A stretch of DNA of 64,000 bases, taken from positions 4,108-68,107 of the forward strand of contig JABJOE010000009.1 in the NCBI GenBank assembly GCA_018664485.1, read 5' to 3'. This document shows positions 26,545-55,375 of the stretch, piece by piece. The notes beneath the pieces were generated by a model. It ran no database searches and was not told the origin of the DNA. It saw nothing but the letters and a program-made list of their open reading frames with translations. Each line of letters starts with the position of its first letter. Positions within the stretch are counted from its first letter, which is position 1. The DNA is from Candidatus Uhrbacteria bacterium. GTDB lineage: Bacteria; Patescibacteriota; Patescibacteriia; UBA9934. Position numbers and translations under genes: made by a program.

Positions 26545-26651
26545 GACAAAAAAACAGTCCGTTTCTCTCCCAAACCCCTCATGAGGCTTGGTTGACAGAT
26601 GGGCTGTTTTTGATTAGCATTTTGTCGTTACGAACACCATGCCGGTAAGTA

Positions 26652-27353
26652 GTGACGAGGAATACGGAAATGTGTACACCAGACCAAGAGGAGGGACCTG
26701 GCCATGGCCGTCATGCTCCAAAGGCCGCAGGAGTAGTTCTTGTTCGGTGCGGAGACTATCGCACGAATGGACCGCATAGTGCGTTCGCTATAAACGAACT
26801 GCTCAAAAATGCAGTTGATGCATTTACGGTCAATCAGACTGGAAGGTCACATACTGCTGGAAGAATCAAACATGACCTACAGGTCATCCCTGGTCCAGCG
26901 CATGTCCTTGCAACTCGCTTTGGCATTCGACGCTACCTGCGTGCACAGCTATGGCTACATGCACAGATGCTGGGACTCCACAGCGTCGGCGATGGGCGGT
27001 GGATCGAAAAGCTGACGTCCTTGTGGCAGATCAAGGCCTACGTCGAGCTTCACGGCCAAGAGACAATAGTACTCGCTACCCACTGGGACTGCGGACGTGA
27101 GGGTGAACACGGACAGGATATGGACACCCACATTGCACATGCCTGGGGCAGCCTGCAAACACTCCGCCGAGCGCTTCCAGAACACAACCTCGCGCTGATG
27201 ATGCTGCACGTTGACGAAGGAAAGATCGTACTTGAAGAAAGTCGTGTATACACTTTCGTACAGGTCGCAGCGTTGATGGACAGAGTACACAGTCGCCACG
27301 CAACAGCGCAACGTCCCAAGACCGAGCAAAGCCGCGCAGAAGCTGCCAAGTAG
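26652..27353 (+). CDS. beta-carbonic-anhydrase-like zinc-binding protein, G+C-rich paralog (CxDxR ... HxxCG); exact start uncertain
   Basis: VLVRCGDYR and IVLATHWDCG align with ALVRCMDFR and IVLMNHTDCG of the next gene. G+C visibly higher than flanks. Long antisense ORFs here are treated as GC artefacts. Confidence 0.4.
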   Translation: MTRNTEMCTPDQEEGPGHGRHAPKAAGVVLVRCGDYRTNGPHSAFAINELLKNAVDAFTVNQTGRSHTAGRIKHDLQVIPGPAHVLATRFGIRRYLRAQLWLHAQMLGLHSVGDGRWIEKLTSLWQIKAYVELHGQETIVLATHWDCGREGEHGQDMDTHIAHAWGSLQTLRRALPEHNLALMMLHVDEGKIVLEESRVYTFVQVAALMDRVHSRHATAQRPKTEQSRAEAAK

Positions 27354-27463
27354 CGGCACTGAGCACAACTCCGACGACCGCCGCCCCAAGTCTTGGGTAG
27401 CGGTCGTTTTGCATCTGTACAAAAAATGATATTTTCTCTAGAATCTTTATAAATACTCAATAT

Positions 27464-27590
27464 CTACAACCTACTAGCTACAAGCTATTTTCTACAACCT
27501 AGTACCTAACACCTAAGACCTACCAGCTATTTACTACAAGCTACAACCTAGTACCTAATCCCTACCAGCTAATTTCTATAACCTAACACC
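27464..27590 (+). repeat. degenerate tandem repeat / minisatellite built from CTACAA(C/G)CTA, GTACCTAA, CCTACCAGCTAWTT units
   Basis: Read directly. Low-complexity CT/A-rich repeats immediately upstream of 27592. A 17-mer, cctagtacctaacacct, recurs with 1 mismatch at 38577-38593. Confidence 0.6.
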
Positions 27591-27591
27591 T

Positions 27592-28005
27592 ATGTCACAT
27601 ACCTGCTCCGCAGCGCTTGTTCGTTGCATGGATTTCCGACTCGAGTCTGCCATTGAGGAATACATGGCAAATAACAAACTCACAAACGACACAGACGTCA
27701 TATCAATTGCCGGTGCTGCAAAAGATGTAAACGATCAGAGCATGGGTGGAGCAGTCGCAGGTCAGCTCGCACTTTCAAAGAAATTGCACGACATCAACAC
27801 CATAGTTCTAATGAACCACACAGACTGCGGAGGCTACGGTGGACGATCAGCATTTGAAAGTCGAGAAGCCGAATGGCAGAACCATGTAGACGCTCTAAAC
27901 GGAGCAGCGGCTATACTAAAGGCAACATATCCAGACGTCACAATAAAAAAAACAATAGCTGATATTAACGACGACGGATCAATAGAAATCAAAGAAGTGG
28001 CTTAA
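27592..28005 (+). CDS. beta-carbonic-anhydrase-like zinc-binding protein (short, 137 aa)
   Basis: RCMDFR (CxDxR), VISIAGAA, HTDCGG (HxxCG) with beta-CA-like spacing. Identification tentative. Confidence 0.45.
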   Translation: MSHTCSAALVRCMDFRLESAIEEYMANNKLTNDTDVISIAGAAKDVNDQSMGGAVAGQLALSKKLHDINTIVLMNHTDCGGYGGRSAFESREAEWQNHVDALNGAAAILKATYPDVTIKKTIADINDDGSIEIKEVA

Positions 28006-28067
28006 AGTAAAAAGTTAGAAAAGCGGGCAAATGTCCGTTTTTCTATTTGTGCTAAAATAGCGTAACT

Positions 28068-31001
28068 ATGCCAGACAAACTTCTATTTGGATTAAACGAA
28101 GAGCAACTCGAAGCCGTCACATACGACGGTGGGCCGTTGATGATTATCGCAGGTGCCGGTACCGGAAAAACAACCGTAATCACTCAGAGAATCTCTTGGC
28201 TTATTGAACAGGGAAGAGCGAAGCCAGACGAAGTATTGGCACTAACCTTTACAGAGAAGGCGGCAACCGAAATGGAAGAGCGTGTTGATCAGCTACTGCC
28301 AATTGGATATGTAGATCTTTGGATTTCAACATTCCATGCTTTTTGCGAACGGGTCCTTCGACAACATGCACTTGAGATCGGACTACCAGATCAATTCCTT
28401 CTTCTCGATGAGATTAGTGCGTATCTGATGATTCGTCGTGAACTTGAACGGTTCGAACTCGACTACTATCAACCACGCGGAAACCCAACACGATTCCTTC
28501 GCTCAATGCTTAAGCACATCTCTCGCCTAAAGGACGAGCTCATTACTCCAGACGATTACGCCGCACTCGCAGCAGAAAAGCTCGCAAATAAAAAACCGGA
28601 CAAAGATGCTACCGACAAAGAAAACGAAGAGCAGTTAGCCGAGATTGCAAAGCTCGGTGAACTTGCAAATGCATACCGCGTATACCAAGACATTCTCCTT
28701 GAGCAGAATGCTTTGGACTTTTCTGACCTTATTTCATACACAATCGAGCTTTTCCGAAAACGACCAGATATTCTCAAGCAATATCAGGAACAGTTCAAAT
28801 ATATTCTGGTTGATGAGTTTCAAGATACAAACATGGCGCAATACGCGCTCGTAAAGCTACTCATTTCATCACCTGACAACATCACAGTGGTTGGAGACGA
28901 TGATCAATCAATCTATAAATTCCGAGGGGCGTCACTTTCAAATATCATGCAGTTCCGCGCTGACTTTCCGGATTCAAAGCGCGTAGTGCTTACAAAAAAC
29001 TATCGTAGTGGAAAGAATATTCTCGATGCTGCGTACAAGATGATTCAGCAAAACAATCCAAACCGGCTTGAGGATCGCGAAGGGCTAAACAAGGAGCTTA
29101 CAGCGCATCAGGAACACGAAGGGTACGTTGAACACATTCATTGTGATACTCATCACGACGAAGTACAGGGCGTCATGGAAAAAATCGTTTCACTCAAAAA
29201 AGACGACGACACGCGATGGTCCGACTTTGTTATCTTAGTTCGTGCCAATGACAACGCAACACCGTTTTTAACGTCCCTTGAACACGCCGGCATTCCATAC
29301 CGTTTCATGGCAATGTCAGGGCTCTACACAAAGCCAATTATCATCGACGGTCTTGCATTCCTGCGTATTATCGACCAGCACCACGATGGACCATCCATGT
29401 TTAGGATTTTGAGCCACCCAACTCTTGGTGTTGGGGAGAACGACCTTGCAAATATCACAATGCACGCTCGCAAAAAGGGAATTTCGTTGTTTCAGGCTTT
29501 GGTTTCCACTCCAGACATTTCAGATGAAGGAAAGAAACGAATTGATGAATTACTAGAATCACTTGGAAGCCTGGAGACAGAGGCACGCCGACGACCCGCA
29601 AGCGAACTATTCGTAAGTGTGATGAAGCAAACTGGCCTCCTTGCAGGAATTCGTGAACTGCCAGAGCCTGCACAGGTCGAGCAGTTTGAGTTCCTACAGC
29701 AGTTCTTCGCTCGAATTAAAGCATTTGAAAAGACTGCAACAGACCCTCATGTACACCATTTCTTGGAAATTTTCGACCATGAATCTCAGGCGGGGGAAGC
29801 TGGAAAATTATCAACTGATATTGAAGCCGGCCCTGACGTTGTAAACATCATGACCGTTCATGCTTCAAAGGGATTAGAGTTCCGCTTTGTTTTCCTCGTA
29901 AACCTGGTAGAGCAACGATTCCCGTCACAACGACGCGCTGACCCAATCAAAATCCCTGAAGAACTTGTAAAAGAAATTCAAAATGAAGAAGGGAATCCAC
30001 ACATTGAAGAAGAGCGACGACTTTTCTACGTTGCCATGACCCGTGCGAAAGAAGGTCTTTTCATGTTCAGTGCAGAAGATTACGGAGGTGTACGTAAGCG
30101 AAAACCATCACGATTCATTCAGGACGCTAATCTAGAACCACAAAGACGAACAGGAAATGTGCAAAGGCTTGGTGAGGAGATGGATGTAGAGGTGAAAGCT
30201 GGAAACAATATTCCATCATTCAAACCAGGGACGATGTCGTTCACTCAACTAGCGGCATTTTCAAGCTGTCCACTGCAGTACAAATTTGCTCATATCCTTC
30301 ACGTTCCAGTATTTGGTCGTTACCAGATGAGTTTTGGAAAAACGATGCACAACTCACTACAGCATTTCATGGAGCGCGTAGTTGCAGCCCAGCAGAAATC
30401 AGAGGAGACTTCAGGTGCAGACACAGAAACACCAATCGAATTTCCAAGCCTCAACATTCTAAAAGAGATATACGAAGCCAACTGGATTGACGAATGGTAC
30501 CCAGATGACGATATTCGCGAAGAGTACCGACAGAATGGACTTGATTCGCTTACAGCATTTCACACAGATCTCAACGCTCGCAAACCCAAGGTCTCAATGA
30601 TTGAAAAAGGCTTTACATTGAAAATTGGAGAAGTGACAGTAAAAGGACGTATAGACCGTATCGACGAAATTGAAGATGGCTTTGAAATCGTTGACTATAA
30701 AACTGGGTCACCAAAGGCTTTGGAGAAGATTGGTTGGCAAGAAAAACGTCAGCTGGTTCTCTATGCACTAGCTGCAGAGCGATGTTTCGATCCGCCACTA
30801 AAAATCACAAAACTTACGTACCATTATCTCGAGGACAACTCACTCGTGACATTCGAACCAAAACAAAAAGATATTGAAAAGCTTCAACAGGAAGTATTAG
30901 GTACGGTTGCTCGCATGAAAGAGTCTGATTTTAAGGCAACGCCGGGATGGAATTGTAAATTCTGTGACTTCCGAGATATTTGTGAATTTAGAGCTGGTTA
31001 A
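28068..31001 (+). CDS. UvrD/PcrA/AddA-type SF1 helicase fused to a C-terminal PD-(D/E)xK RecB/Cas4-like nuclease domain with a Cys cluster
   Basis: N-terminal AGAGTGKTTVIT Walker A, UvrD motifs (TFH, VDEFQDTN). C-terminal DxK-like region and NCKFCDF..IC Cys motif. Confidence 0.85.
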   Translation: MPDKLLFGLNEEQLEAVTYDGGPLMIIAGAGTGKTTVITQRISWLIEQGRAKPDEVLALTFTEKAATEMEERVDQLLPIGYVDLWISTFHAFCERVLRQHALEIGLPDQFLLLDEISAYLMIRRELERFELDYYQPRGNPTRFLRSMLKHISRLKDELITPDDYAALAAEKLANKKPDKDATDKENEEQLAEIAKLGELANAYRVYQDILLEQNALDFSDLISYTIELFRKRPDILKQYQEQFKYILVDEFQDTNMAQYALVKLLISSPDNITVVGDDDQSIYKFRGASLSNIMQFRADFPDSKRVVLTKNYRSGKNILDAAYKMIQQNNPNRLEDREGLNKELTAHQEHEGYVEHIHCDTHHDEVQGVMEKIVSLKKDDDTRWSDFVILVRANDNATPFLTSLEHAGIPYRFMAMSGLYTKPIIIDGLAFLRIIDQHHDGPSMFRILSHPTLGVGENDLANITMHARKKGISLFQALVSTPDISDEGKKRIDELLESLGSLETEARRRPASELFVSVMKQTGLLAGIRELPEPAQVEQFEFLQQFFARIKAFEKTATDPHVHHFLEIFDHESQAGEAGKLSTDIEAGPDVVNIMTVHASKGLEFRFVFLVNLVEQRFPSQRRADPIKIPEELVKEIQNEEGNPHIEEERRLFYVAMTRAKEGLFMFSAEDYGGVRKRKPSRFIQDANLEPQRRTGNVQRLGEEMDVEVKAGNNIPSFKPGTMSFTQLAAFSSCPLQYKFAHILHVPVFGRYQMSFGKTMHNSLQHFMERVVAAQQKSEETSGADTETPIEFPSLNILKEIYEANWIDEWYPDDDIREEYRQNGLDSLTAFHTDLNARKPKVSMIEKGFTLKIGEVTVKGRIDRIDEIEDGFEIVDYKTGSPKALEKIGWQEKRQLVLYALAAERCFDPPLKITKLTYHYLEDNSLVTFEPKQKDIEKLQQEVLGTVARMKESDFKATPGWNCKFCDFRDICEFRAG

Positions 31002-31002
31002 C

Positions 31003-31404
31003 ATGAATGATTTCGGCAAAAACAAATGGCAAAAGTGGAAACGCCCAAAAAAAGCTAATCGACCGTTTAAAAAACGACCGGATAGCATCAACTTTTTGGT
31101 TGGTGGAGCTTTGAAGCGGCATGGAATAGGGCCTCAGGTTCAAGCTGCGATGATTGTAAAGCGTGCAAACGAGGTCTTAGACAGAATTATCGAAGAACGA
31201 TTTCGATCCGATGTTCGCGTAATATCGTTTCAGCGCACCGAACTTCACGTTGCCTGCCGTCACGCACCAGCACGCCACGTAATCGACAGCGTAAGGGTGC
31301 AAATTAGCGAGGAGATGACAGTTCATTTTCCATCAATTACAATCAATAGAATCTTCTGCAAGGTAGACCCACACATGCTCGACAGCAAAAGTGAAATTTC
31401 ATAA
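31003..31404 (+). CDS. DUF721-like protein (DciA-like fold?)
   Basis: Start ATG 1 nt after the helicase stop. Pattern VKRANEVLDRII...RVISFQRTELHVACRHAPARHVI resembles DUF721. Confidence 0.45.
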   Translation: MNDFGKNKWQKWKRPKKANRPFKKRPDSINFLVGGALKRHGIGPQVQAAMIVKRANEVLDRIIEERFRSDVRVISFQRTELHVACRHAPARHVIDSVRVQISEEMTVHFPSITINRIFCKVDPHMLDSKSEIS

Positions 31405-31458
31405 ACAGAAACCTGCACTTACAAGATTCAAATCCATTTCTCGTGATACAATATCACT

Positions 31459-31842: not shown

Positions 31843-31990
31843 TACTACGATCAACATAAACTAAGATAAGGTCTCCGGGATATAAAGTAACCGAAGGCCC
31901 TTATATTTTGTGGGCATTCAGATAAAGTGGTGCGAGGCATTAGAGTTTGAGATATTTAGACAGTGAATACATGAAAGTTTACGGCAGATT

Positions 31991-33043: not shown

Positions 33044-33067
33044 GGCACAAAACTAAACACAAAAACC

Positions 33068-34362: not shown

Positions 34363-34407
34363 TATCGTTTGCAGACCAAATAACGCCAGAAATTACGAAA
34401 GAATAAT

Positions 34408-36330: not shown

Positions 36331-36466
36331 AATACTGTTGACCATAACGTTGACATAATGCAAATACTGCAGTATGCTACTTCTATTGTCGCAGAAAAGC
36401 GGGAATAATTTTTTCTGCAAAAATTTAAGCTTTATTGGCTGAAATAGCCAAAATTTACGACTTACT

Positions 36467-36928: not shown

Positions 36929-36952
36929 GTTTTCTACATTTTAAAAGCACAT

Positions 36953-36985
36953 CACCCCCGACCTGGCGTTTTCCAGGCGGGGGTG
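36953..36985. terminator. GC-rich hairpin terminator (cacccccgacctggcg tttt ccaggcgggggtg), bidirectional for greA (+) and the minus-strand islet gene
   Basis: Perfect long inverted repeat. On the minus strand it is followed by TGCTTTTAAAA. Confidence 0.65.
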
Positions 36986-37001
36986 TTGACGTTTGTAGTC
37001 C

Positions 37002-37667
37002 TCAGCTCTCACTGGGCTTGTAAGGGATGAACGATTCGCCGGTAATAGCAGGTGCTACTCCCGATGGCACGCTGAACGTATATCTAAATACATCACCAGG
37101 TTTGCAGATCGCGGGCGCTGCGCCCTTGAATGGAAAACCAATGAACGGTGCCATACCGACTCCAATTACGTGGCGGTCGCCCGTGGGAAAATCTCTAGAC
37201 AGAACTTTGAATTTGTATTTTCCTACAGGACCAAGGAGTACATCATGCATCCAGACAAGTAGTTGGAGTTGGTAGAATGTAGAATTTCGCCACACCTTCC
37301 CCCAAACCTGCATTCCCGGATCCTGCATAGATGCAACAGCCTTCATTGCCTCATCGAAACTCTTGCGCCCGCTCGGCCACCACGACTCATGGTGGTATCC
37401 AAGTGCTGCAACTTCGCGTGGAACAACCCTCACGCCAAGCTCATCATTCGCCAGCTCTGCAAGTAGACCAGTAGCATTGAGAGCAGACTCATCATGAGTC
37501 ACGAAGAGCCGACCGTCCCATGGGTCTCCACTCACTTTGATCAGAGGAAGTACTTCATTTAGAGACGCATCGCGCACCGCGCTTGCGCTCAAGCCAGCGT
37601 CGTTATCCATGCCGCAGCAAATCAGATGAAAGTTGACTTCCAGGCGCCTCTCATTCGGATCAATCAT
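37002..37667 (-). CDS. hypothetical protein, tandem paralog A (unknown family; FHLIxC, GDxWDGRL, HHVIGxG, C-terminal PYKPSES)
   Basis: 221 aa, G+C-rich. GGGAGGT SD 7 nt before the ATG. About 35-40% identical to the upstream paralog. Confidence 0.5.
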   Translation of the reverse strand: MIDPNERRLEVNFHLICCGMDNDAGLSASAVRDASLNEVLPLIKVSGDPWDGRLFVTHDESALNATGLLAELANDELGVRVVPREVAALGYHHESWWPSGRKSFDEAMKAVASMQDPGMQVWGKVWRNSTFYQLQLLVWMHDVLLGPVGKYKFKVLSRDFPTGDRHVIGVGMAPFIGFPFKGAAPAICKPGDVFRYTFSVPSGVAPAITGESFIPYKPSES

Positions 37668-37746
37668 TTAGACCTCCCGGCCTTGCTATGGGGAATCTAA
37701 ACTTACCTAATACACGCTTCTATCGTCAAATCACTTTAACGCACAT

Positions 37747-37777
37747 CACCCCCGACCTGGCGTTCCAGGCGGGGGTG
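37747..37777 (-). terminator. duplicated copy of the GC-rich hairpin terminator, 3' of paralog B
   Basis: Near-identical at nucleotide level to 36953-36985, including the last 6 codons of the preceding gene. Confidence 0.6.
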
Positions 37778-37794
37778 TTTGACGTTTGCAGGCC

Positions 37795-38439
37795 TCAGCT
37801 CTCACTGGGCACGTAGGGCGTGAATGTGCAGCTAACCAGTTTTGGCGGACCTTCTTTTGGTACATGGAAGAAGTAGCTGAACATAGATCCAGGCTCAACA
37901 ATGGCGGGCACATCAGAAGGGCTGCCATACGGCATGCCAATCATAGGGGAGTGGCCAAGACCAATCACATGATGATTTCTTGTACGATCAGCGAACCGCA
38001 TACCAACCATCACGGAATGCATCCAGGTCAAGACACGATGTCGGTAGAAACTGGCAGCCATCCACGACTGATGCCATGCCATAAAGGACTGTGGCGTTAC
38101 CATGAATTCTCTGACAAGCCCAATGTAGTCAGGGCCAGCATTACCATCCCAAATTGTGGGGTGGTAAAATCCGATCGCTCCAGTGGAGACCTGCTCACAG
38201 AACTGATCACGATCTCCGTCAACAACTGCCGCAATACTATCCGCAGCAGCGACAGGTGAACTGTCAACGTTCACATGGAGACGTCCATCCCATGCATCTC
38301 CAGGCCTCCTTATCAGAGGAAGAATCTTATCGCTGAACATGCAGCTCGCCCTAAGGGCGCCATTTTCACCACCAGGGCCCTCCGCACAAACAATGAGGTG
38401 AAAAGAAACCTTCAGGCACCCGCCTTTCTTACAAGCCAT
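37795..38439 (-). CDS. hypothetical protein, tandem paralog B (same unknown family; C-terminal PYVPSES)
   Basis: Start taken at MACKKGG (ATG at 38437-38439) with a GGAGGT SD. This aligns with the start of paralog A. The ORF as listed extends to 38499. Confidence 0.5.
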   Translation of the reverse strand: MACKKGGCLKVSFHLIVCAEGPGGENGALRASCMFSDKILPLIRRPGDAWDGRLHVNVDSSPVAAADSIAAVVDGDRDQFCEQVSTGAIGFYHPTIWDGNAGPDYIGLVREFMVTPQSFMAWHQSWMAASFYRHRVLTWMHSVMVGMRFADRTRNHHVIGLGHSPMIGMPYGSPSDVPAIVEPGSMFSYFFHVPKEGPPKLVSCTFTPYVPSES

Positions 38440-38576
38440 TCTAGACCTCCAGGTTTTGAGAATGGATCTGAATTTACCCAAAAAAACCTTGATTGTCAAG
38501 CAAAACTGGTGTAGACTTTGTCTATCAACCTTACAAGGTTGCAGGTTTTAAGTACTAGGTTTTAGCGCCAATACCT

Positions 38577-38593
38577 AACCCCTAGTACCTGAC
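38577..38593 (+). repeat. 17-mer cctagtacctgacacct, second occurrence of the motif found in the 27464-27590 repeat
   Basis: 1 mismatch to 27504-27520. Lies between the G+C-rich islet and lysS. Confidence 0.5.
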
Positions 38594-38668
38594 ACCTTTT
38601 ATATATTTTGAGTAAGTCTGGCAAAATCCGACCAGAATCCACCTAGGAAAAGTACAATAAAACCAACT

Positions 38669-42011: not shown

Positions 42012-42012
42012 T

Positions 42013-43149: not shown

Positions 43150-43155
43150 TACCGC

Positions 43156-45583: not shown

Positions 45584-45623
45584 TCAATCAGTATACCAAA
45601 CTTAAAGTTAGACGTCAGGACTA

Positions 45624-45839
45624 TTGCAATTAGCCTTTTTATATGATAAAAACTCTGCGAATTCCAACTACGGAGACATCTTGGAACTCATCACGTACAC
45701 TGATTCACATGTCCAATTCTGGACGCTGATAGTGCTTGCGGCCTTCTTTATCCTCGGGCTCACAGCCTTTGGTGCACTATGGCCTGACATTGTCAGAGGA
45801 TTCAACGAGCGAAACCGCTCGCCCACCAACCCCGAGTAA
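45624..45839 (+). CDS. hypothetical small membrane protein (in a G+C-enriched islet)
   Basis: 71-aa ORF with one TM helix. Weak. Confidence 0.3.
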   Translation: MQLAFLYDKNSANSNYGDILELITYTDSHVQFWTLIVLAAFFILGLTAFGALWPDIVRGFNERNRSPTNPE

Positions 45840-45841
45840 CG

Positions 45842-46084
45842 ATGACCGTACTGATTGTGAAAGTTTGTATCGGGCTCGCCGTACTTCTCGCCATCGCTCT
45901 TGTGACCGGTGTGGCAGACATACCTTTCGAGTACTATGACAGATGGATGGAAGAGCGAAAAAAGGAAAAGCCTGCGGTCAAGCGAGCGCCCGGCACATTC
46001 CTACCGCTGTTGCTGGTAATTGGTACCGGCGCAACCCTGTTCTTCATCTGCTTGCTCCTGATGAGCTCTCTCTCCACCCCTTGA
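45842..46084 (+). CDS. hypothetical small membrane protein (2 TM; G+C-enriched islet)
   Basis: 80-aa ORF starting 2 nt after the previous stop. A hairpin plus T-run terminator lies at about 46205-46245. Confidence 0.35.
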   Translation: MTVLIVKVCIGLAVLLAIALVTGVADIPFEYYDRWMEERKKEKPAVKRAPGTFLPLLLVIGTGATLFFICLLLMSSLSTP

Positions 46085-46239
46085 GGATGATGATCCCAGA
46101 CCCACTACTTCTACTTGTCACTATTTGGCTCGCAACCGAACTAGCGGCGGTAATCCAGAATAGTGCCCTCCGGTAAAACAACCTACAAGCGTACAACCAT
46201 GTACCGTCAGCGCCACCGCGGCCCTGGCGGTGTTGATTT

Positions 46240-47703: not shown

Positions 47704-47706
47704 ATT

Positions 47707-48936: not shown

Positions 48937-49015
48937 GTCTACGTCAAAATACCAGCACTTACAATCCTTGTTTACTCTCCAATACTTGACAATTGCGCTA
49001 ATTTATGATAAAAAG

Positions 49016-49528
49016 ATGCGCACCCCAGGAGACAAAATGACCCCGACCTTACCACAAGTGTTCACCGGGATTGGATTCGCCCTTTTGCTGATGGGATGTT
49101 TCGGCATCATCGCCACCATCCTGATTGACGGGATCTTTCTGGTACCTGAGCGGAATAAGATCCTCAGCAGAGTGCGCCGACAAGTAATCGAATCGTCGAA
49201 AGCAAGCGACATGAGCTACGCTATATCAAGACTGCAAGCAGCTCTTGGTTGGATGTCTGACAATGACTTCGATGAGGCGTTCCCCGGCTACTACAGACAT
49301 CTGAAGAAGTGTCACGACTACCTCTCTCCGCGTATCAAGGACGTACCCATCAAGCAGAAGGTCCACCTGATGCACAACCAGCGAGAGCTTGAAAACAACT
49401 GCAACTGGGTGGTGCCGCAGAAGATGTACACCCATCGCGTGAAGTACGCGGACATCCTACACAGTATCGTTTTCTGGTCATCGCTTATCGTGTCCGCGCT
49501 TGGTCTTTTCGTTCTGATCGTGACCTGA
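49016..49528 (+). CDS. hypothetical membrane protein, tandem paralog 1 (MRTPGD... family)
   Basis: Start at the conserved ATGCGCACCCCAGGAGA. N-terminal TM and a C-terminal TM. Own TTGACA promoter at 48986. Confidence 0.5.
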   Translation: MRTPGDKMTPTLPQVFTGIGFALLLMGCFGIIATILIDGIFLVPERNKILSRVRRQVIESSKASDMSYAISRLQAALGWMSDNDFDEAFPGYYRHLKKCHDYLSPRIKDVPIKQKVHLMHNQRELENNCNWVVPQKMYTHRVKYADILHSIVFWSSLIVSALGLFVLIVT

Positions 49529-49660
49529 CCCTCTGAGCACAATGTATCTGCTCCTCGCCCTCCTCTCGCCTCGTCGAGCTGGAGGGTTGACTGCATCATA
49601 TTTTAATCGATTATTTAACGCATCCATTGCTTGACAATTCAGCTAATGAGTGCTAAAAAG

Positions 49661-50176
49661 ATGCGCACCCCAGGAGATATCATCACCCACGACGCAGAAC
49701 TTCTTTTGCTTACCGGAACCATCCTCAGCCTCATTGGAGTAATCGCATTCTTGATCTGCATCATTTTGCACATCTTGTATCTTGATCCCGAACTCAAGCT
49801 TATTGACAGAGAGGTCCTTAAGCCGATCCAGGAAGCGGCTGATGCGAGTGACATCCGCTTTGCCATTGAAAGCCTCGATGCAGTACGTGAGTGGATGACG
49901 CTCAACGGGTTCAGCGAGAGTTTTGGAGGCCTCTTCAAGCACCTTAATGGTCGGAGAGACTTCCTTGCCCATAAGACGATGGCTCAACCGCTTTATCCAC
50001 TCAAGATTCTGGCTGTCAACAAAAGCTCAATCGAGAGCCACATGAACTGGCTGCTCGTTGTAAGAATCTCTCTACATCGCGTGCGTGTACCTGGCTTCAT
50101 CTGCCTATTCAATTTGATCATACTTGGCCTCACTACGTTCCCAGGCATCTTCTTCATTGTTGAAGCCTTGCGATAA
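49661..50176 (+). CDS. hypothetical membrane protein, tandem paralog 2 (MRTPGD... family)
   Basis: Same conserved start context, promoter (TTGACA 49631-49636) and 3' hairpin (ccctcc..ctcgcctcgtcgagctggaggg) as paralog 1. Confidence 0.5.
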   Translation: MRTPGDIITHDAELLLLTGTILSLIGVIAFLICIILHILYLDPELKLIDREVLKPIQEAADASDIRFAIESLDAVREWMTLNGFSESFGGLFKHLNGRRDFLAHKTMAQPLYPLKILAVNKSSIESHMNWLLVVRISLHRVRVPGFICLFNLIILGLTTFPGIFFIVEALR

Positions 50177-50270
50177 AGATGGGCCGATTCGCCAAACAGA
50201 CGTCCAGACACACCTCGCCCTCCACCTCGCCTCGTCGAGCTGGAGGGTTGACTGCATCTGGACAAGTTTC

Positions 50271-50312
50271 TTGACAAACCACTAATTAGCACTCTACAAT
50301 GGAGACTGCTAA
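50271..50312 (+). promoter_or_regulatory. clpB promoter (TTGACA-17-TACAAT) overlapped by a CIRCE-type inverted repeat TTAGCACTC-N9-GACTGCTAA (HrcA operator)
   Basis: CIRCE consensus TTAGCACTC-N9-GAGTGCTAA matched with 1 mismatch at 50286-50312. Confidence 0.65.
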
Positions 50313-50564
50313 GTGGCGCATCTCAACTCTGAAGCTAAGATATTCTACGAATCCATGACAGAGATGTCTTGCGAATCTACGGCATAGGTGTCCTGAAGAA
50401 CAATTTACCTTACAAAATCATACAGCTCACTAAAATGAGCGTAGGAATTTGGATGAGATATCGTTGAAAACTGAGTACTGAAATGAGGCGTACTAAAAAG
50501 TACGGCGAATAAGGCACAGAAGTTTGAAACGATAGATCGCCAAATAGCAAACGAACTGCATATT

Positions 50565-53198
50565 ATGTTGCCAAATAACTTTACTTCCAAGTCCCAAGAA
50601 GCAATTCAAATTGCACAAATGCTAGCCAACGAAAATGGTCAGCAAGCAGTTGAACCAATCCATCTTCTTGCAGCACTCGCCCATCAAGAGGATGGAATCG
50701 TTGTTACAATTTTTAAAAAGATGGGTACGCCAATTGCTGAGATGCGTACCAATATCAACCATATAATCGAATCACTTCCTAAAAACTTTGGCTTTGGGCA
50801 GTCTGGTATGGGACAGGTTCTACTAAGTCCGATGCTTGCAAAGGTCCTTCAAGTGGCATCAAACACTGCAAAGGATTTTGGCGACGATTACATTTCAACA
50901 GAACACCTCCTGCTTGGACTAATTTCAAACAGGCAAATCAAAAAGTTCCTGGAAACAAACAATGTAAACGAAGAACGAACATTGGAAACCCTAAAAGAAG
51001 TTCGTGGAAACCAAAAAGTAGACTCAGCGGACCCTGAAGCAAAATTCCAAGCGCTTGAAAAATATTCCATAAACCTTACAGACTTTGCTCGTGAAGGAAA
51101 GATGGATCCAATCATCGGTCGTGATGAAGAGATCCGCCGCATCATGCAAGTCCTTGTCCGTCGTACCAAAAACAACCCAGTACTAGTTGGAGAAGCTGGA
51201 GTTGGAAAAACTGCTATTGCTGAAGGCCTCGCACAGCGAATCGTCGCAGGTGACGTGCCTGAGATGCTAAAAGATACAGAGATCATTTCACTCGACCTCG
51301 GAGCGCTCGTTGCCGGTACTAAATTCCGTGGTGAATTCGAAGAACGGCTAAAGGCTGTTATCAAAGAAATTGAACGAGCTAACGGTCGGATGATTTTATT
51401 TATTGATGAGCTACATACTTTAGTGGGAGCCGGAAAAGGTGATGAGTCCCCTATGGATGCGTCTAACATGCTCAAACCTGCCCTTGCGCGTGGAGAGCTC
51501 CGCGTCGTAGGTGCGACAACTCTAAAGGAATACCAAAAATATATTGAAAAAGACGCAGCTCTGGAACGTCGCTTCCAGCCTGTAATGGTTCAGGAACCAA
51601 CCCGAGACGACACTGTGGCGATTCTGCGTGGTATTAAGGAGAAGTACGAAATCCACCATGGTGTTCGTATTACTGATGCCGCAATTATCGCATCCGTTGA
51701 CTTATCAACTCGCTATATCACTGAGCGTAACTTGCCAGACAAAGCGATTGATCTTATTGATGAATCAGCCGCTGCCCTTCGAATGCAGATTGATTCTATG
51801 CCAGAAGATCTCGACCGCATGAAGCGCGAAGAGATTCGCTTGGAGGTTGAGCGTCAGTCCCTGCTAAAGGAAAAAGATAAGAAGTCTAAAACTCGTCTTA
51901 AAGAGATCGAAAAATCTATTGCTGATATTAAGGAAGAATCTGTAGGTCTTGAATTACGATGGAAGAACGAAAAAGGTCTTATTGGAAAGATCCGTGTTCT
52001 AAAAGATGAAATAGATAAGCTTACGAACGAGTCTGAAATTGAAGAACGTAAAGGTGATCTTGAAAAGGTTGCTGAGATTCGTTATTCGGTTATTCCAAAG
52101 AAACGTGATGATTTACTTAAGGCCCAGACTGAACTTCGAGAATTCCAAGAAGATCGTGGTCTACTTACAGAAGAAATCGGTGAGGAGGAAGTAGCTGCCG
52201 CAGTTGCACGATGGACACAGATCCCGGTATCCAAAATGCTGAAGAGTGAAATGGAAAAGCTCGCACAAATGGAAGAGAATTTGAAAACTCAAGTCATAGG
52301 CCAGGGTGAAGCGATCACGGCGGTAAGTAATGCCCTTCGGCGTTCACGTGCCGGTATCTCTGAGGAAAAACGACCGATCGGTTCATTTATATTCCTAGGG
52401 CCAACCGGTGTTGGAAAGACTGAACTTGCAAAGGCTCTTGCCGGATTCCTGTTCGATGATGAAGACGCTCTCGTTCGTGTCGACATGTCTGAGTACATGG
52501 AGAAGCATAGTGTGAGCAAAATGATCGGATCTCCTCCAGGATATGTTGGTCATGACGAATCAGGACAGCTTACAGAGAAAATCCGCCGCCGCCCCTACTC
52601 TGTTGTTCTATTTGATGAGATTGAAAAGGGTCACCCTGATGTGTTCAATATGTTACTGCAGGTTCTTGACGACGGTCATCTCACAGATGCGAAAGGACGC
52701 AAGGTAAACTTCAAGAACACAATTATTATCATGACTTCAAACGTTGGATCAGACATGATTCTAAACTCCGGTAAACATGGTGACATCGGATTTGGAGGTG
52801 ATGAAGAGATTAAAGAGCATGACGGTATTAAGAATAAGGTGATGGGGCAATTGCGCGAGCAGTTCCGACCGGAGTTCCTTAACCGTATTGATGACATTAT
52901 CTTCTTCCACGCGCTTACGAAGGAAAATATATCTGAGATTGTTCAGTTGCAGATCGACATCGTTGCAAAGCGATTGCAGGAGCAGCGCCACATTCAATTA
53001 AAGGTTAATGCTAAGACGCGACGATTCTTGGCTGAACGTGGGTTTGACCCGCAGTACGGTGCACGTCCGCTAAAGCGTATTATCCAGTCTGAAATCCTCG
53101 ACCCTCTTGCGATGAAGATTGTGAAGAATGAGGTGCCAGACGAAGCGAATGTCACAATCGATGTCGTGAAAGACAAGGTAAACGTGACAGTGAAATAG
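50565..53198 (+). CDS. clpB: ClpB disaggregase chaperone (AAA+, two NBDs and a middle coiled-coil domain)
   Basis: Clp N-domain. GEAGVGKT and GPTGVGKT Walker A motifs, long M-domain. 877 aa. Confidence 0.95.
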
Positions 53199-53199
53199 T

Positions 53200-53514
53200 A
53201 TGATGAAGAAATTACTTGATACAGATGGAGATGGAGACGTTGATATAGACGATTTAAAAGGTAGCTCATCTAAAGTAGCAGACGACGTACGCGAGCGAAC
53301 CATAGGCTACTTAACTGCTGCGTTTGGGCTTGTAGCCGGGCTTGCTTGGAATGATGCTATAAAGGGTTTTATCGAAGTCTACTACCCTCTTGCGCAAGAT
53401 TCGGTACTCGCAAAGTTCATATATGCTATAGCAATTACGCTTATAGTAGTTGGAATGACTACTGTGCTCATAAAGCTCTCGAAGAAACCCGAAAGCTCCG
53501 AGAAAGATAAGTAA
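53200..53514 (+). CDS. hypothetical small membrane protein with an acidic DTDGDGDVDIDD N-terminus
   Basis: 104 aa, two TM helices. Start 1 nt after the clpB stop. Confidence 0.45.
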   Translation: MMKKLLDTDGDGDVDIDDLKGSSSKVADDVRERTIGYLTAAFGLVAGLAWNDAIKGFIEVYYPLAQDSVLAKFIYAIAITLIVVGMTTVLIKLSKKPESSEKDK

Positions 53515-53697
53515 TCAATATATAAAAGAAACAATGCGTCCCAGCGGGCGTATTGTTTTTATTCAGAACGAGAAATATGCAACCCGGTTGCGTATTTATT
53601 ATTTACTTCAGAAAAGCTAAAAGTGGCTAGATAGCGAAACGCGTCCGACCCAGAGGATCAGACGCGTAGAAGCTGTTGTAGGTTGTAGCGGTGAAGC

Positions 53698-54255
53698 TCA
53701 GTCGTTGTCGATCCGGAGCTCACCATTCCGCTCCTTCCAGTCACCATCATCGATAACCTCGTCTTCCCACATCACCATGGTGGTTTCCGCCACGGCGTTG
53801 TCATCCACGAACAGGCTGGAAGCCGGTCCACCACCAATGGTGATGCTTCCGGTGCATTCTGCGTCAAAATGACTGGGAATGCTCGGAATGTAGACGATCG
53901 CCGAAAGGCCATCGGTGTAGATGTAGGGAGCAGCGGGAACGATGTCGCCATCGCTGTCCTCAACGAGGCAGCTCAGGTTCATCTGTGTGATCTCGTAGTT
54001 CGGATCCGTCATCGCTTCCTCGGCGTAGACGTTCATGATCTCGATCATGAGACCATCCTCCTGTATGGGAGCGCCGACCATGTTGCCGTTGCCGATCTCA
54101 GCGCAGATGTTGATGTTCGTGCCGCCGTTGCCGATCTCGATGAAGTCACCGAGACAGACCTTGGCGCCGAAGCTCGCATCCGACAAGTCGCATCCGCTGA
54201 GGGACAAGAACGAGACGATGGCGGCACCGGACATGAGGATCTTCTGAATGTTCAT
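53698..54255 (-). CDS. hypothetical secreted lipoprotein (G+C-rich islet)
   Basis: Start at MNIQK with an AAGGAGA SD. Signal peptide with LSLSGC lipobox. Gly/Asn-rich. Confidence 0.5.
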   Translation of the reverse strand: MNIQKILMSGAAIVSFLSLSGCDLSDASFGAKVCLGDFIEIGNGGTNINICAEIGNGNMVGAPIQEDGLMIEIMNVYAEEAMTDPNYEITQMNLSCLVEDSDGDIVPAAPYIYTDGLSAIVYIPSIPSHFDAECTGSITIGGGPASSLFVDDNAVAETTMVMWEDEVIDDGDWKERNGELRIDND

Positions 54256-54330
54256 GGGGTCTCCTTGCCTCAAATGAGGACTTAGTTTGGGGTAGGTTTC
54301 AGCGGCGCTGAATCACGTCGGATCTTTCAA

Positions 54331-54373
54331 TCACGCCGCTATGAGAATCATTCCACTCTCATAACCTCGCGAT
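54331..54373 (-). promoter_or_regulatory. conserved 43-nt 5' element containing the palindrome TATGAGA-N10-TCTCATA, copy 1
   Basis: Identical to 55015-55057. Lies about 75 nt upstream of the lipoprotein gene start. Confidence 0.55.
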
Positions 54374-54479
54374 GTTGTAAATCCGGTAAGAGGACCATCA
54401 ATGATCCGCTTGCAGGATCCCCTCGAAGCTATAAGCGCCAAGGGTCGGTGAATAGTATTCTTAGGGCCCTATACGGCCA

Positions 54480-54971
54480 CTAGTCCATCTCGATACCTTC
54501 GTAGATGGCAAAGTAGTCTCGGTCCTCGAGGTCGCACGTCTTGATGTATCCGTGGTATTTCTTGCGGATCTCTTTACACCTTGACCTAGTCACGTCCACC
54601 AAGTGATCGATAACGTCGTCGACGTCATCTTCGAGCTGATCATATCCGCCCGTGCTAGGGACGAAAATCGGCTCAACCGGTCCATTAGGATGATGTCCGT
54701 CAGGAATCTGTATGTAGGCGCCGTCGCGATAGTCGAAGTATTCCCGATCGTATGCGTCGTATCGGTACTCAGAATAGTCCCGATCGTACGTATCATAATC
54801 TACCACGAGATAGAAGCCTCTCTCTTGCTCAAACGCGATACCAATGCCGTATTCCGTGACTCCGCAAGCGGATTCGGACTCGTTCTTGAGTTGAAGTTGG
54901 GAGATATATGCACCTGCGCCTGCGATAATGAGGGCGAGAAGTGCGAGGATATTTGTAATGGTCTTGAGCAT
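54480..54971 (-). CDS. hypothetical secreted protein with a Tyr/Asp/Arg-rich repeat (YDTYDRDYSEYRYDAYDREYFDYRDGAY)
   Basis: Cleavable signal peptide. Low-complexity YD(R)(D/E)Y repeats. G+C-rich. Confidence 0.5.
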   Translation of the reverse strand: MLKTITNILALLALIIAGAGAYISQLQLKNESESACGVTEYGIGIAFEQERGFYLVVDYDTYDRDYSEYRYDAYDREYFDYRDGAYIQIPDGHHPNGPVEPIFVPSTGGYDQLEDDVDDVIDHLVDVTRSRCKEIRKKYHGYIKTCDLEDRDYFAIYEGIEMD

Positions 54972-55014
54972 GGTCTATCCGTATGCTGGGGGTGTGGGAA
55001 GAAGCGTACGTTTT

Positions 55015-55057
55015 CACGCCGCTATGAGAATCATTCCACTCTCATAACCTCGCGATA
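55015..55057 (-). promoter_or_regulatory. conserved 43-nt palindrome-containing 5' element, copy 2
   Basis: Exact duplicate of 54331-54373. About 40 nt upstream of the 54971 start. Confidence 0.55.
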
Positions 55058-55375
55058 TACAGAAAATTCGATCCTGTATAGAGAGATCGAACATATACAG
55101 GGCATGCCCTGGGACCATTTCGTTAGTCCAGAAGTTTCTTTCTCACATTCAGATCTATGTAGATTGAATCTGTGAATGAATCTCCTTACGTCTCTCTCTT
55201 CACTTGTATCTTACACGAGTCATAATAGCACAAAAATGACGTCTTGTCAAGCCCAAACCGTAGTTTATTAGCCAATCTTAGCCACTTATTTTGTTCATTT
55301 TAATCTTACAAAACATCCAAAAACACCTCTGGAAAACCTCATTTCAGCTATAGAAAATATGTTATACTTCCCACT

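What the first reader, a model, noticed from the sequence alone, without database searches (positions are those of the whole stretch)
26650..55100. Mosaic of short G+C-rich cassettes (foreign-looking islets) inserted between housekeeping genes
At least five segments are visibly G+C-enriched against the ~40% background: 26.65-27.42, 36.95-38.52, 45.70-46.26, 48.97-50.27 and 53.6-55.1 kb. Long spurious antisense ORFs appear only there, which is a typical G+C-bias signature. Each segment is a compact, self-contained unit with a sigma70-like promoter, a strong SD, one or two small genes and a GC hairpin terminator. Three of them are tandem paralog pairs or carry exactly duplicated regulatory DNA. 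The products are small secreted, lipo- or membrane proteins, or metal-binding proteins of unknown function. Together this looks like repeated acquisition and duplication of accessory cassettes. One possible source is a higher-G+C partner or host organism; another is an unrecognised mobile-element mechanism. No integrase or transposase is present. Two flanks share a CTAGTACCT(A/G)ACACCT motif, at 27504 and 38577.
Basis: partly seen in the sequence, partly recalled or inferred. Interest (0 to 1): 0.65.

Follow-up and report, generated by a model that had tools for sequence, protein, structure and literature searches.

The report
Resident GC-rich fast-evolving small genes
Five small gene islets in this ultra-small marine bacterium really are much richer in G+C than their surroundings, but they are old resident genes kept at the same chromosomal spots in related species, so they are not foreign DNA and some unknown gene-specific force keeps them G+C-rich.

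Summary
All eight islet genes have third-codon-position GC (GC3) of 0.50-0.76. The 52 other genes of the window have GC3 0.30-0.45 (z = 3-11). Window G+C is 44.8%, not about 40%.

In a sister genome (85-90% identical housekeeping proteins, GC3 about 0.55), islets 1, 2, 4 and 5a sit at the same positions. They are homologous there, or in the case of islet 1 the same length at the same position. They are even more extreme there (GC3 0.83-0.98).

- Islet 1 is an old tandem paralog of the neighbouring Pro_CA_2 gene. It is GC3-elevated in three genomes.
- The islet 5a lipoprotein family has six members in the whole protein universe searched. All have GC3 0.76-0.98 against flanks of 0.31-0.55.
- The elevation stops at the ends of the coding sequence.
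- Islet promoters are as conserved as housekeeping genes, while islet proteins are only 23-55% identical.
- Neutral sites between the two genomes are near saturation.
- The population is clonal.

I conclude these are resident, fast-evolving accessory genes under a persistent, gene-delimited GC-favouring process of unknown nature. Islets 2, 4 and probably 5 were tandemly duplicated in this lineage. Islets 3 and 5b are lineage-specific.

The parts
26545..27446 (+). Islet 1. The gene I1 runs 26670-27353 (227 aa; alternative GTG start at 26652). It is a degenerate Pro_CA_2-like paralog with GC 0.55 and GC3 0.52. Its promoter is TTGACA 26592 - N17 - TAGCAT 26620. A terminator hairpin lies at 27373-27411.
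   Evidence: GC3 z = 3.8. Pfam Pro_CA_2 E = 0.0018, below the cutoff. Paralogy to the 27592-28005 gene. A 227-aa gene sits at the same position in the sister genome with GC3 0.90. A recognised Pro_CA_2 paralog sits at the same position in the L012-type genome with GC3 0.55. The promoter core is conserved with the sister genome.
27592..28005 (+). Resident Pro_CA_2 gene (137 aa) of normal composition (GC3 0.41). It is the conserved partner of I1.
   Evidence: Pfam PF20393 E = 5.7e-14. It is 82% identical to the sister-genome ortholog.
36929..38530 (-). Islet 2. It holds the tandem paralogs I2a 37002-37667 (221 aa) and I2b 37795-38439 (214 aa; alternative TTG start at 38499). They are degenerate histidine-phosphatase-like proteins with GC3 0.50. 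Duplicated terminator hairpins lie at 36941-37031 and 37735-37824. The I2b promoter lies at 38499-38471.
   Evidence: The single ortholog in the sister genome (L013 9222-9911 = L182 17047-17736) has GC3 0.83 and matches Pfam His_Phos_1 at E = 1.1e-7. The 5' flank is 74% identical to the sister genome and the CDS 43%. The islet is absent from L012 and L011.
45584..46239 (+). Islet 3. It holds I3 45842-46084 (80 aa, two transmembrane segments, GC3 0.63) and an upstream 71-aa membrane ORF at 45624-45839 (GC3 0.58). A terminator lies at 46214-46232. The islet is specific to the window lineage.
   Evidence: The M23 peptidase gene and gltX are contiguous in the sister genome, in L012 and in L169.
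48937..50262 (+). Islet 4. It holds the tandem paralogs I4a 49037-49528 (163 aa; alternative TTG start at 48968) and I4b 49661-50176 (alternative starts at 49631 and 49646). They are two-transmembrane-segment proteins with GC3 0.68 and 0.59. A repeated promoter/leader lies at 48978-49043 and 49623-49688. An exact 33-nt 3' repeat lies at 49565-49597 and 50226-50258.
   Evidence: The single ortholog in the sister genome (L013 19537-20085) has GC3 0.96. The family is limited to these genomes. A GC3 0.73 two-transmembrane-segment ORF sits in the same gap in L012.
53600..55260 (-). Islet 5. I5a 53698-54255 (185 aa) is a lipoprotein with an Ig-like beta-sandwich domain and GC3 0.76. I5b 54480-54971 (163 aa) has a signal anchor and GC3 0.60. 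An exact 43-nt hairpin repeat lies in both leaders (54331-54373 and 55014-55056). The promoter is TTGACA-17-TATTAT at 55250-55222.
   Evidence: I5a family members and their contexts. Structure and fold. I5b has no relative in any locus examined.
27459..27591 (+). Array of about 19 heptads (CTAnnnn) that forms the leader of the Pro_CA_2 gene. It is not an islet boundary element.
38540..38597 (.). Short, divergently arranged heptads of the same type.

Best explanation
The islets are resident, vertically inherited accessory genes specific to a small clade of marine and groundwater Uhrbacteria-like Patescibacteria. They are not imported DNA.

At least one, I1, arose by tandem duplication of a resident gene. 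I2 is a decayed histidine-phosphatase homolog. I4, I5a, I5b and I3 are small envelope proteins. Each is an ordinary transcription unit with its own conserved promoter, Shine-Dalgarno site and hairpin terminator. In the window lineage I2, I4 and probably I5 were tandemly duplicated.

Their proteins evolve close to the neutral rate. Their coding sequences are nevertheless held at a GC content far above the genome's own synonymous-site equilibrium. That requires a persistent GC-favouring process that is delimited by the gene and whose strength is gene-specific.

My most likely mechanism (inferred, not shown) is a substitution process biased from A/T towards G/C (weak-to-strong). It would be of the biased-repair or biased-gene-conversion type and would act within these transcription units. 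Such a process would raise GC3, pull GC1 and GC2 upward, and accelerate protein divergence all at once.

Shown: synteny, homology, composition, coding-sequence-limited boundaries, promoter conservation, saturation of neutral sites, clonality.

Inferred: that the composition is an equilibrium maintained by a continuing force, and the nature of that force.
For: Synteny from atp to fmt is conserved in all relatives.

GC3 of each islet gene, window against sister genome:
- I1: 0.52 against 0.90
- I2: 0.50 against 0.83-0.87
- I4: 0.59-0.68 against 0.96
- I5a: 0.76 against 0.97
- Housekeeping genes: 0.39 against 0.55

The rank order of the four islets is the same in both genomes.

GC3 of the six I5a-family members, with flanks in brackets:
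- window 0.76 (0.39)
- sister genome 0.97 (0.55)
- L169 0.85 (0.31)
- L172 0.82 (0.48)
- L191 0.88
- L192 0.87 (0.38-0.45)

Five of the six are seen next to clpB, DUF5654 or the h449 gene.

The I1 position holds a Pro_CA_2 paralog with GC3 0.55, against 0.27-0.39 for its neighbours, in the 38%-GC L012-type genome.

Four-fold degenerate sites of seven housekeeping genes are 35% identical between the window and the sister genome, where chance is 25%. Their GC is 0.28 and 0.49. There has therefore been time to reach equilibrium, yet the islets sit far above it.

Among 31 housekeeping genes, conservation (57-95% identity) does not predict GC3 (rho -0.20 and +0.17, not significant). The islet genes are therefore a discrete class.

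The codon shift affects every codon family, including AAG, GAG and CAG. It is therefore compositional and not translational selection.

The GC rise is confined to the coding sequence plus the terminator hairpin. Ends of neighbouring genes and the spacer between two GC-rich genes are at background.

I1 and I2 promoter/leader cores are 74-85% identical between species, like housekeeping coding DNA (72-79%). Islet coding sequences are 40-43% identical.

I5a identities roughly follow the species relationships.
Against: - No direct evidence exists for any weak-to-strong-biased process. Substitutions cannot be polarised because the islet sequences are saturated.
- A recombination-tract process would be expected to spill into the synonymous sites of neighbouring genes. 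It does not.
- The population is clonal. Eighteen contigs from several samples differ from the window by 1 SNP in 24.5 kb of flank and 1 in 10.9 kb of islet. There is therefore little heteroduplex for conversion to act on today.
- Bacterial mutation is generally biased towards A/T (established knowledge; restated in PMC11293555).
- I3 and I5b have no relatives at all. L089 has an unrelated GC3 0.78 gene at the islet 5 position. Both facts fit cassette turnover better than pure vertical descent.
- Only 64 kb of the 986-kb genome was visible.
Confidence: 0.45

Rival explanations
1. Selection on the nucleotide composition of these particular coding sequences or mRNAs. Examples would be GC-ending codons that throttle or time translation with a minimal tRNA set, or GC-rich, 5'-hairpin-protected, long-lived mRNAs.
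For: The elevation is delimited by the coding sequence. It persists across saturated divergence and is largely independent of the background. The rank order of islets is conserved between genomes. Promoters and leaders are conserved, so expression matters. The I5 leaders carry a strong conserved hairpin.
Against: - Synonymous sites would have to be under stronger selection than most amino-acid sites of the same proteins, which are only 23-55% identical.
- That is hard to achieve in a clonal population.
- G/C-ending codons are not rare in the sister genome, yet GC3 there is 0.83-0.98.
- The shift covers all codon families uniformly.
- GC1 and GC2 are also raised in I1 and I2.
- No shared function: the products are a mix of cytosolic enzyme relics and envelope proteins.
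Confidence: 0.2
2. Recurrent replacement of the coding cassette by divergent alleles from a clade-wide (or unsampled mobile) GC-rich gene pool. Homologous recombination would occur in the conserved promoter and terminator arms. The low protein identity would then reflect deep allele coalescence, not fast evolution.
For: - Compositional boundaries are sharp and coincide with conserved flanks.
- In the tandem copies the non-coding flanks are 80-100% identical and the coding sequence about 45%.
- Presence/absence varies: I2 is absent in L012 and L011, I4 in L169, and I3 and I5b everywhere else.
- Unrelated GC-rich genes occupy the same gap in L089, L012 and L172.
- I5a is as similar to the more distant L192 copy (56%) as to the sister copy (55%), while DUF5654 is 59% against 75%.
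Against: - No pool was found. There are five clusters in 1.84 billion representative proteins for I5a, and two genomes for I2 and I4.
- Nothing in viral, phage or plasmid data.
- No shared att-like motif among islets.
- I1 descends from a resident tandem pair.
- No allelic variation in the sampled population.
- A donor with about 70% GC and the same gene order is not known.
Confidence: 0.2
3. One reading: independent horizontal acquisitions from a higher-G+C organism (host or partner, for example Actinobacteria) or by an unrecognised mobile element, not yet ameliorated.
For: The composition is atypical. In the sister genome the codon usage looks like that of a roughly 70%-GC organism. I3 and I5b are unique to this lineage.
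Against: - Four islets are at the same positions in the sister genome, and two families are found in more distant relatives.
- There are no homologs outside the clade.
- No mobility genes, tRNA or direct repeats are present.
- Neutral sites are saturated between the genomes, so an ancestral import would have ameliorated.
- The genuine accessory insertion in the sister genome (CDPS) is AT-rich, not GC-rich.
Confidence: 0.05
4. Ongoing targeted hypermutation of these genes, by a diversity-generating retroelement or another locus-specific mutator.
For: Protein divergence is very fast while the flanks stay conserved. A is the most depleted base at third codon positions in I2a/b and I5a. Diversity-generating retroelements are reported to be common in this radiation (from my own knowledge).
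Against: - Islet sequences are 100% identical across about 18 contigs from different samples.
- There is no template/variable repeat pair in the window.
- Divergence does not exceed what saturated neutral sites allow.
- Whole genes are affected, not a C-terminal variable region.
Confidence: 0.03

Closest known systems
Compositional genomic islands from horizontal gene transfer
   Same: Short segments of atypical base composition holding accessory genes of unknown function between housekeeping genes. Compositional island predictors would flag them. Compositional island prediction (IslandViewer) is how islands were called in Patescibacteria in PMC12455944.
   Different: They lie at the same positions in related species, and all but I1 are demonstrably homologous there. 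They are GC-rich where such islands are usually AT-rich. They have no mobility genes, tRNA or att repeats, and no donors. The composition is more extreme in the GC-richer sister genome. Boundaries are at the coding-sequence ends.
Borrelia vls antigenic-variation locus
   Same: A surface lipoprotein locus held at about 49% G+C in a genome of about 28.6%, conserved across species. It is thought to be maintained because of, or for, gene conversion (PMC11499132).
   Different: The vls locus has a strong coding-strand GC skew (about 0.52), G-runs, and arrays of about 90%-identical silent cassettes. Here the coding-sequence GC skew is -0.14 to +0.11, paralogs are only 33-35% identical, there are no silent arrays, and two of the families are cytosolic enzyme relics.
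GC-biased gene conversion hot spots and localised GC-biased substitution clusters in eukaryotes (human accelerated regions; the gerbil Pdx1 region, PMC6573468, title and abstract only)
   Same: The same combination of locally raised GC, especially at third codon positions, with radically accelerated protein divergence in otherwise ordinary genes.
   Different: Those depend on meiotic recombination hot spots and extend over regions, not exact coding sequences. In bacteria only a weak genome-wide association between recombination and GC3 has been reported (Lassalle et al. 2015, from my own knowledge). Nothing gene-specific of this size is known to me.
Bacterial species-specific orphan genes
   Same: Short, lineage-restricted, fast-evolving genes that gene callers handle poorly. 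The antisense strand was called for two sister-genome orthologs.
   Different: Across thousands of species, orphans match their genome's GC and GC3. Rapid divergence is expected to add A/T (PMC11293555). Here they exceed the genome's GC3 by 0.1-0.5.

Membership tests
Horizontally acquired genomic island | Atypical base composition or codon usage relative to the host genome | tested here: met
   GC3 z = 3.1-10.6. All codon families are shifted.
Horizontally acquired genomic island | Absent from, or patchy in, close relatives at that position | tested here: not met
   I1, I2, I4 and I5a are present at the same positions in the sister genome. The I1 and I5a families are also present in more distant relatives. 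Only I3 and I5b are lineage-specific.
Horizontally acquired genomic island | Mobility signatures: integrase or transposase, flanking tRNA, direct repeats | tested here: not met
   No tRNA. No inter-islet or flanking repeats beyond the tandem duplications. No PHROG hits.
Horizontally acquired genomic island | Closest homologs in another taxon (the donor) | tested here: not met
   the families are confined to this clade; nothing in viral, phage or plasmid data.
Integron gene cassettes | An intI integrase and attC sites bounding promoter-less cassettes | tested here: not met
   There is no shared imperfect inverted repeat among the islets. The cassettes have their own promoters. The islets are dispersed, not arrayed.
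Diversity-generating retroelement target | A template/variable repeat pair with adenine-specific differences, and variability within the population | tested here: not met
   No such repeat pair in the window. The islets are 100% identical across samples. A reverse transcriptase outside the window was not searched for.
vls-like gene-conversion locus | High G+C together with a strong coding-strand GC skew and arrays of near-identical silent cassettes | tested here: not met
   High G+C is present. GC skew is about 0, and the only paralogs are 33-35% identical.
GC-biased gene conversion hot spot | Excess of A/T-to-G/C (weak-to-strong) substitutions, and a locally raised recombination rate | not testable with these tools
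   The sequences are saturated and the population is clonal. Genomes at 90-97% ANI or deep population data are needed.
GC-biased gene conversion hot spot | Regional effect that spills into neighbouring neutral sites | tested here: not met
   The ends of neighbouring genes and the spacers are at background GC.
Pfam Pro_CA_2 (PF20393), for I1 | Profile score above the gathering threshold, with the C-x-D-x-R and H-x-x-C zinc motifs | tested here: inconclusive
   I1 scores 18.9 bits against a cutoff of 30. The motifs VRCGDYR and THWDCG are retained in the window copy and partly lost in the sister copy. The gene at the same position in L186 is a recognised Pro_CA_2.
Pfam His_Phos_1 (PF00300), for I2 | Profile match and a catalytic RHG motif | tested here: not met
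   The sister ortholog passes (32.2 bits against a cutoff of 21.7) and has LMRHGD. The window copies give no hit and read FHLICCG and FHLIVCAEG. They are relatives of the family but probably not active phosphatases. The structure model is too poor to use (pLDDT 48.7).

The most novel reading that the evidence does not exclude
A gene-specific, heritable GC drive operates in bacteria. A handful of small genes in this Patescibacteria clade would be subject to a locus-restricted substitution process biased from A/T to G/C (biased repair or conversion, or a transcription-unit-coupled mutational bias). It would push GC3 to 0.8-0.98 regardless of genomic background and drive near-neutral-rate protein turnover. 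This would be a prokaryotic counterpart of eukaryotic biased-gene-conversion hot spots, and it would mimic horizontally acquired islands.
Probability: 0.3. Interest if true: 0.85.

Novelty: new variant of a known kind. Interest (0 to 1): 0.62.

Why it matters
Compositional outliers in bacterial genomes are routinely read as horizontal transfer, including in Patescibacteria. Here the same small genes are outliers in at least three to six related genomes whose backgrounds range from GC3 0.3 to 0.55. They lie at conserved positions and have conserved promoters, so composition alone gives the wrong answer.

If the elevation is an equilibrium, these genes are a natural experiment on the open question of what sets bacterial GC content: selection, biased conversion or mutation. 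Resident genes a few hundred bases apart experience opposite net pressures.

It also has practical consequences. Gene callers trained on the host genome pick the wrong strand in these islets, and short-read assemblies break at the tandem copies.

Tried and rejected
- Structured RNA as the cause of the GC-richness. There were no Rfam hits in the window at gathering thresholds, nor at E <= 1 in the two ORF-less GC-rich stretches, and no tRNA or tmRNA. Three-base periodicity and cross-species protein alignments show the islets are coding.
- A concatenated query (I2b + I4b) to the word-indexed protein search returned nothing, not even the proteins themselves. This was uninformative and wasted one search.
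- Phage or defence origin. No PHROG or PADLOC hits, and no relatives in IMG/VR, INPHARED or PLSDB.
- Translational selection. Rejected because AAG, GAG and CAG and all four-fold codon families shift together, and atp, greA and clpB have low GC3.
- A general rule that less constrained genes are more GC-rich. Rejected because there is no correlation among 31 housekeeping genes and ordinary intergenic DNA has GC 0.29-0.39.
- Ongoing hypermutation or strain hypervariability. Rejected by clonality.
- The CTAGTACCTRACACCT motif as an insertion site. Rejected because it is part of heptad arrays in the leaders of housekeeping genes.
- The metagenome scan with ClpB gave only one useful relative, L089. 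The L011-type genome has different gene order upstream of uvrD and says nothing about I1.
- Assembly artefact. Rejected because independent assemblies from several samples agree at 100% identity and relatives show the same pattern.


Full report
**What the window is.** The window is part of a 986-kb contig of a marine "Candidatus Uhrbacteria" (Patescibacteria) population. The same proteins occur in an NCBI genome bin (locus tags HON52_) and in many short contigs from oxygen-minimum-zone-type samples. The finding spans a run of housekeeping genes:
- the atp operon and uvrD
- mreBCD, pbp2 and greA
- lysS, serS and alr
- an M23 peptidase gene, gltX and a wecG-type gene
- clpB, and on towards priA, def and fmt

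There is no Rfam family, tRNA or tmRNA in the window.

**Check of the observation.** Window G+C is 44.8%, not about 40%. The five segments have G+C of 0.50-0.55, against 0.442 +/- 0.029 for non-islet 500-nt windows.

The signal is much sharper at third codon positions. The eight islet genes have GC3 of 0.50-0.76. All 52 other genes lie between 0.30 and 0.45, giving z = 3.1-10.6. Spacers inside the islets are also GC-rich (0.46-0.535, against 0.29-0.39 for ordinary spacers).

- Non-genic ORFs of at least 80 aa are 2.4 times denser in the islets but are not exclusive to them.
- I2a/I2b and I4a/I4b are tandem paralogs at 33-35% identity.
- I1 is a remote paralog of the neighbouring Pro_CA_2 gene.
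- I5a and I5b are unrelated in sequence but share an exact 43-nt leader hairpin.
It belongs to 7-nt periodic arrays in the leaders of the housekeeping genes at 27592 and 38669.

**The synteny test.** One scan of species-representative genomes with LysS gave three relatives with conserved gene order:

| Relative | LysS identity | G+C |
|---|---|---|
| L013 | 85% | 51% |
| L012 | 67% | 38% |
| L011 | 60% | 50% |

Further contexts were recovered through exact-protein look-ups.

In the L013-type sister genome four islets are present at the same positions:
- A 227-aa gene lies between atpC and the Pro_CA_2 gene.
- One I2 homolog lies between greA and lysS. It matches Pfam His_Phos_1 at E = 1e-7 and has an intact RHG motif.
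- One I4 homolog lies between the DUF2238 gene and clpB.
- One I5a ortholog (about 50-55% identical) lies between DUF5654 and the h449 gene, again on the strand opposite to clpB.

These genes are more extreme there: GC3 is 0.90, 0.83-0.87, 0.96 and 0.97, against about 0.55 for housekeeping genes. The rank order I5a > I4 > I1 > I2 is the same in both genomes.

In the 38%-GC L012-type genome the I1 position holds a recognised second Pro_CA_2 gene. Its GC3 is 0.55, against 0.27-0.39 around it. The I4 gap in that genome holds a 77-aa membrane ORF with GC3 0.73.

I3 and I5b have no counterpart anywhere. I2 is absent from L012 and L011, and I4 from L169.

**Who else has these proteins.**
- An exhaustive HMMER search of 1.84 billion representative proteins with I5a found only five clusters, each tiny.
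- Every member whose DNA could be read is a small lipoprotein gene with GC3 0.82-0.97 in a background of 0.31-0.55. Wherever flanks are visible it lies next to clpB, DUF5654 or the h449 gene.
- The I4 and I2 families are confined to the window genome and the sister genome, within the sensitivity of the word index.
- There are no PHROG or PADLOC matches, and no relatives in IMG/VR, INPHARED or PLSDB.

Its stated refutation, orthologous islets with the same bias in relatives, is met for four of the five islets.

**Why the composition must be maintained.** Between the window genome and the sister genome, four-fold degenerate sites of seven housekeeping genes are 35% identical, where chance is 25%. 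Neutral sites are therefore close to saturation. Their GC is 0.28 and 0.49. An ancestral import would have ameliorated to those values. A gene evolving without constraint should also drift there, or towards A/T as usually expected (PMC11293555).

Instead the islet coding sequences sit far above those values in every lineage.
- They are a discrete class. Among 31 housekeeping genes (57-95% identity) conservation does not predict GC3.
- The codon shift is general: AAG, GAG, CAG and all four-fold families move together, with C3 > G3. Ordinary translational selection is therefore excluded.
- The rise is confined to the coding sequence and the terminator hairpin. The ends of neighbouring genes, the promoters and the spacer between two GC-rich genes in L172 are at background.
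- I1 and I2 promoter/leader cores are 74-85% identical between the two species, as conserved as housekeeping coding DNA (72-79%). Islet coding sequences are 40-43% identical, and the proteins are only 23-55% identical (I1 24% in a global alignment, without significant BLAST similarity).
- The same contrast holds inside the window. The I4 tandem units are 80-100% identical in their roughly 70-nt 5' and 45-nt 3' flanks, and about 45% identical in between.
- The islets are not hypervariable today. Eighteen contigs from several samples match the window with one SNP in 10.9 kb of islet and one in 24.5 kb of flank.

**What the genes are.**
- I1 is a decayed beta-carbonic-anhydrase-like (Pro_CA_2) paralog. 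The C-x-D-x-R and H-x-x-C motifs are kept in the window copy.
- I2a and I2b are relatives of a histidine-phosphatase-fold protein that have lost the RHG motif. The structure model is unusable.
- I4a, I4b and I3 are small two-transmembrane-segment proteins.
- I5b has an N-terminal signal anchor and an acidic Tyr/Asp-rich region.

None of these products has a demonstrated function.

**Explanation.** I am confident (about 0.8) that these are resident, vertically inherited, fast-evolving accessory genes, with lineage-specific tandem duplications. I am equally confident that their GC-richness is a maintained state and not a leftover of transfer.

The force itself is not identified.
- I rank a process biased from A/T to G/C (weak-to-strong) first, at about 0.35. 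It would be of the biased-repair or biased-gene-conversion type, or a mutational bias coupled to the transcription unit. It alone explains the raised GC3, the raised GC1 and GC2 in I1 and I2, and the protein turnover together. It has precedents in eukaryotic hot spots and, loosely, in the GC-rich Borrelia vls locus (PMC11499132). The sharp coding-sequence boundaries and the clonal population count against a recombination-tract version.
- Selection on mRNA or codon composition (0.2) fits the boundaries. It would require synonymous sites to be better protected than amino-acid sites.
- Recurrent cassette replacement from an unsampled GC-rich pool through the conserved promoter and terminator arms (0.2) fits the boundaries and the presence/absence pattern. 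It also fits the unrelated GC3 0.78 gene at the islet 5 position in L089. No pool was found, however, and I1 is clearly home-grown.

**Limits.**
- Only 64 kb of this genome could be read, and about 20-kb stretches of the relatives.
- One protein search was wasted on a concatenated query.
- The word-indexed searches have limited sensitivity.
- Substitutions cannot be polarised at this divergence.
- No expression data were available.

Noticed in passing
window 27459-27591 (also 38540-38597): About 19 consecutive 7-nt units (CTAnnnn; TRF periods 7, 14 and 42) run right up to the ATG of the Pro_CA_2 gene, with no Shine-Dalgarno site. A short, divergently oriented set lies in a roughly 150-nt insertion upstream of lysS. 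Relatives carry different short repeats in the same leader (TTCTAAC x2 in L182, TAATCAC x3 in L186).
   Followed up: partly
window 23447-23584 and 24485-24625: The atpA-atpG and atpG-atpD spacers each hold a roughly 135-nt element. The two copies are 73% identical and fold into the same long hairpin with apparently compensatory changes. In the sister genome these spacers are 2-8 nt, so the elements are lineage-specific insertions inside the atp operon. No Rfam match.
   Followed up: partly
window 25997-26097: The atpD-atpC spacer (101 nt) has G+C 0.584 and two GC-rich hairpins. The corresponding spacer is 2 nt in the sister genome.
   Followed up: no
window 18690-19310: A 620-nt stretch between a TatD-like gene and the atp operon has G+C of about 0.50 and no convincing ORF. 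It folds far better than shuffles on the + strand (z = -6.4, 20 shuffles) and contains a repeated ACCCTTGACTT motif. No Rfam hit even at E <= 1. It is a possible novel structured RNA or a sixth, non-coding islet.
   Followed up: partly
window 50271-50564: The clpB promoter (TTGACA at 50271, TACAAT ending at 50300) overlaps a CIRCE heat-shock operator (TTAGCACTC-N9-GACTGCTAA, 50286-50312). The operator is conserved in L013, L012 and L169. Only the window lineage has a roughly 260-nt AT-rich leader between it and the clpB start.
   Followed up: partly
window 61276-63159 (-) and 60842-61120: A 627-aa ABC transporter has moderately raised GC3 (0.52, z = 3.7). Its partial ortholog in L172 has GC3 0.565 against a local background of about 0.48. 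An adjacent 92-aa ORF has GC3 0.54. This may be a milder case of the same phenomenon, outside the reported range.
   Followed up: partly
L169 7780-8330: Next to the I5a homolog lies a roughly 550-nt stretch with G+C 0.50-0.63 in a 41%-GC genome. It has no ORF above 90 aa and no Rfam hit at E <= 1. It may be an RNA, a decayed gene, or GC-richness without coding.
   Followed up: partly
L184 4966-5619 and 8919-9449 (sister genome): The public gene calls for the I5a and I4 orthologs are on the antisense strand, with an artefactual GC1 of 0.92-0.94. The homology-supported frames are on the other strand. GC3-rich islets evidently mislead gene callers.
   Followed up: yes
L182 10998-11702 (= L013 3173-3877): The sister genome carries a cyclodipeptide synthase gene (Pfam CDPS, E = 9e-11) with GC3 0.38 against 0.55. 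It is absent from the window. This is an ordinary AT-rich accessory insertion, opposite in sign to the islets. An HD-domain gene and a PaaX-like gene are also extra there.
   Followed up: partly
L089 2792-3160 (-): In a relative with 74% ClpB identity, a 122-aa ORF with GC3 0.78 (background 0.40-0.47) lies directly after clpB on the opposite strand. It has no detectable similarity to I5a or I5b and no Pfam hit.
   Followed up: partly
window 54331-54373 and 55014-55056: The exact 43-nt repeat folds into an interrupted 17-bp hairpin in the 5' leaders of I5b and I5a. The leader folds have z = -2.7 and -4.1. It is not found in any of the 192 fetched loci.
   Followed up: partly
window 37757-37874: Six independent short-read contigs end within this 120-nt stretch at the I2a/I2b junction. 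Presumably the duplicated terminator sequences break assemblies there.
   Followed up: no
L172 9800-10000: Upstream of the I5a homolog there is a run of AAGTCAA repeats followed by the inverted GACTTT repeats. This is another short-period repeat array in an islet leader.
   Followed up: no
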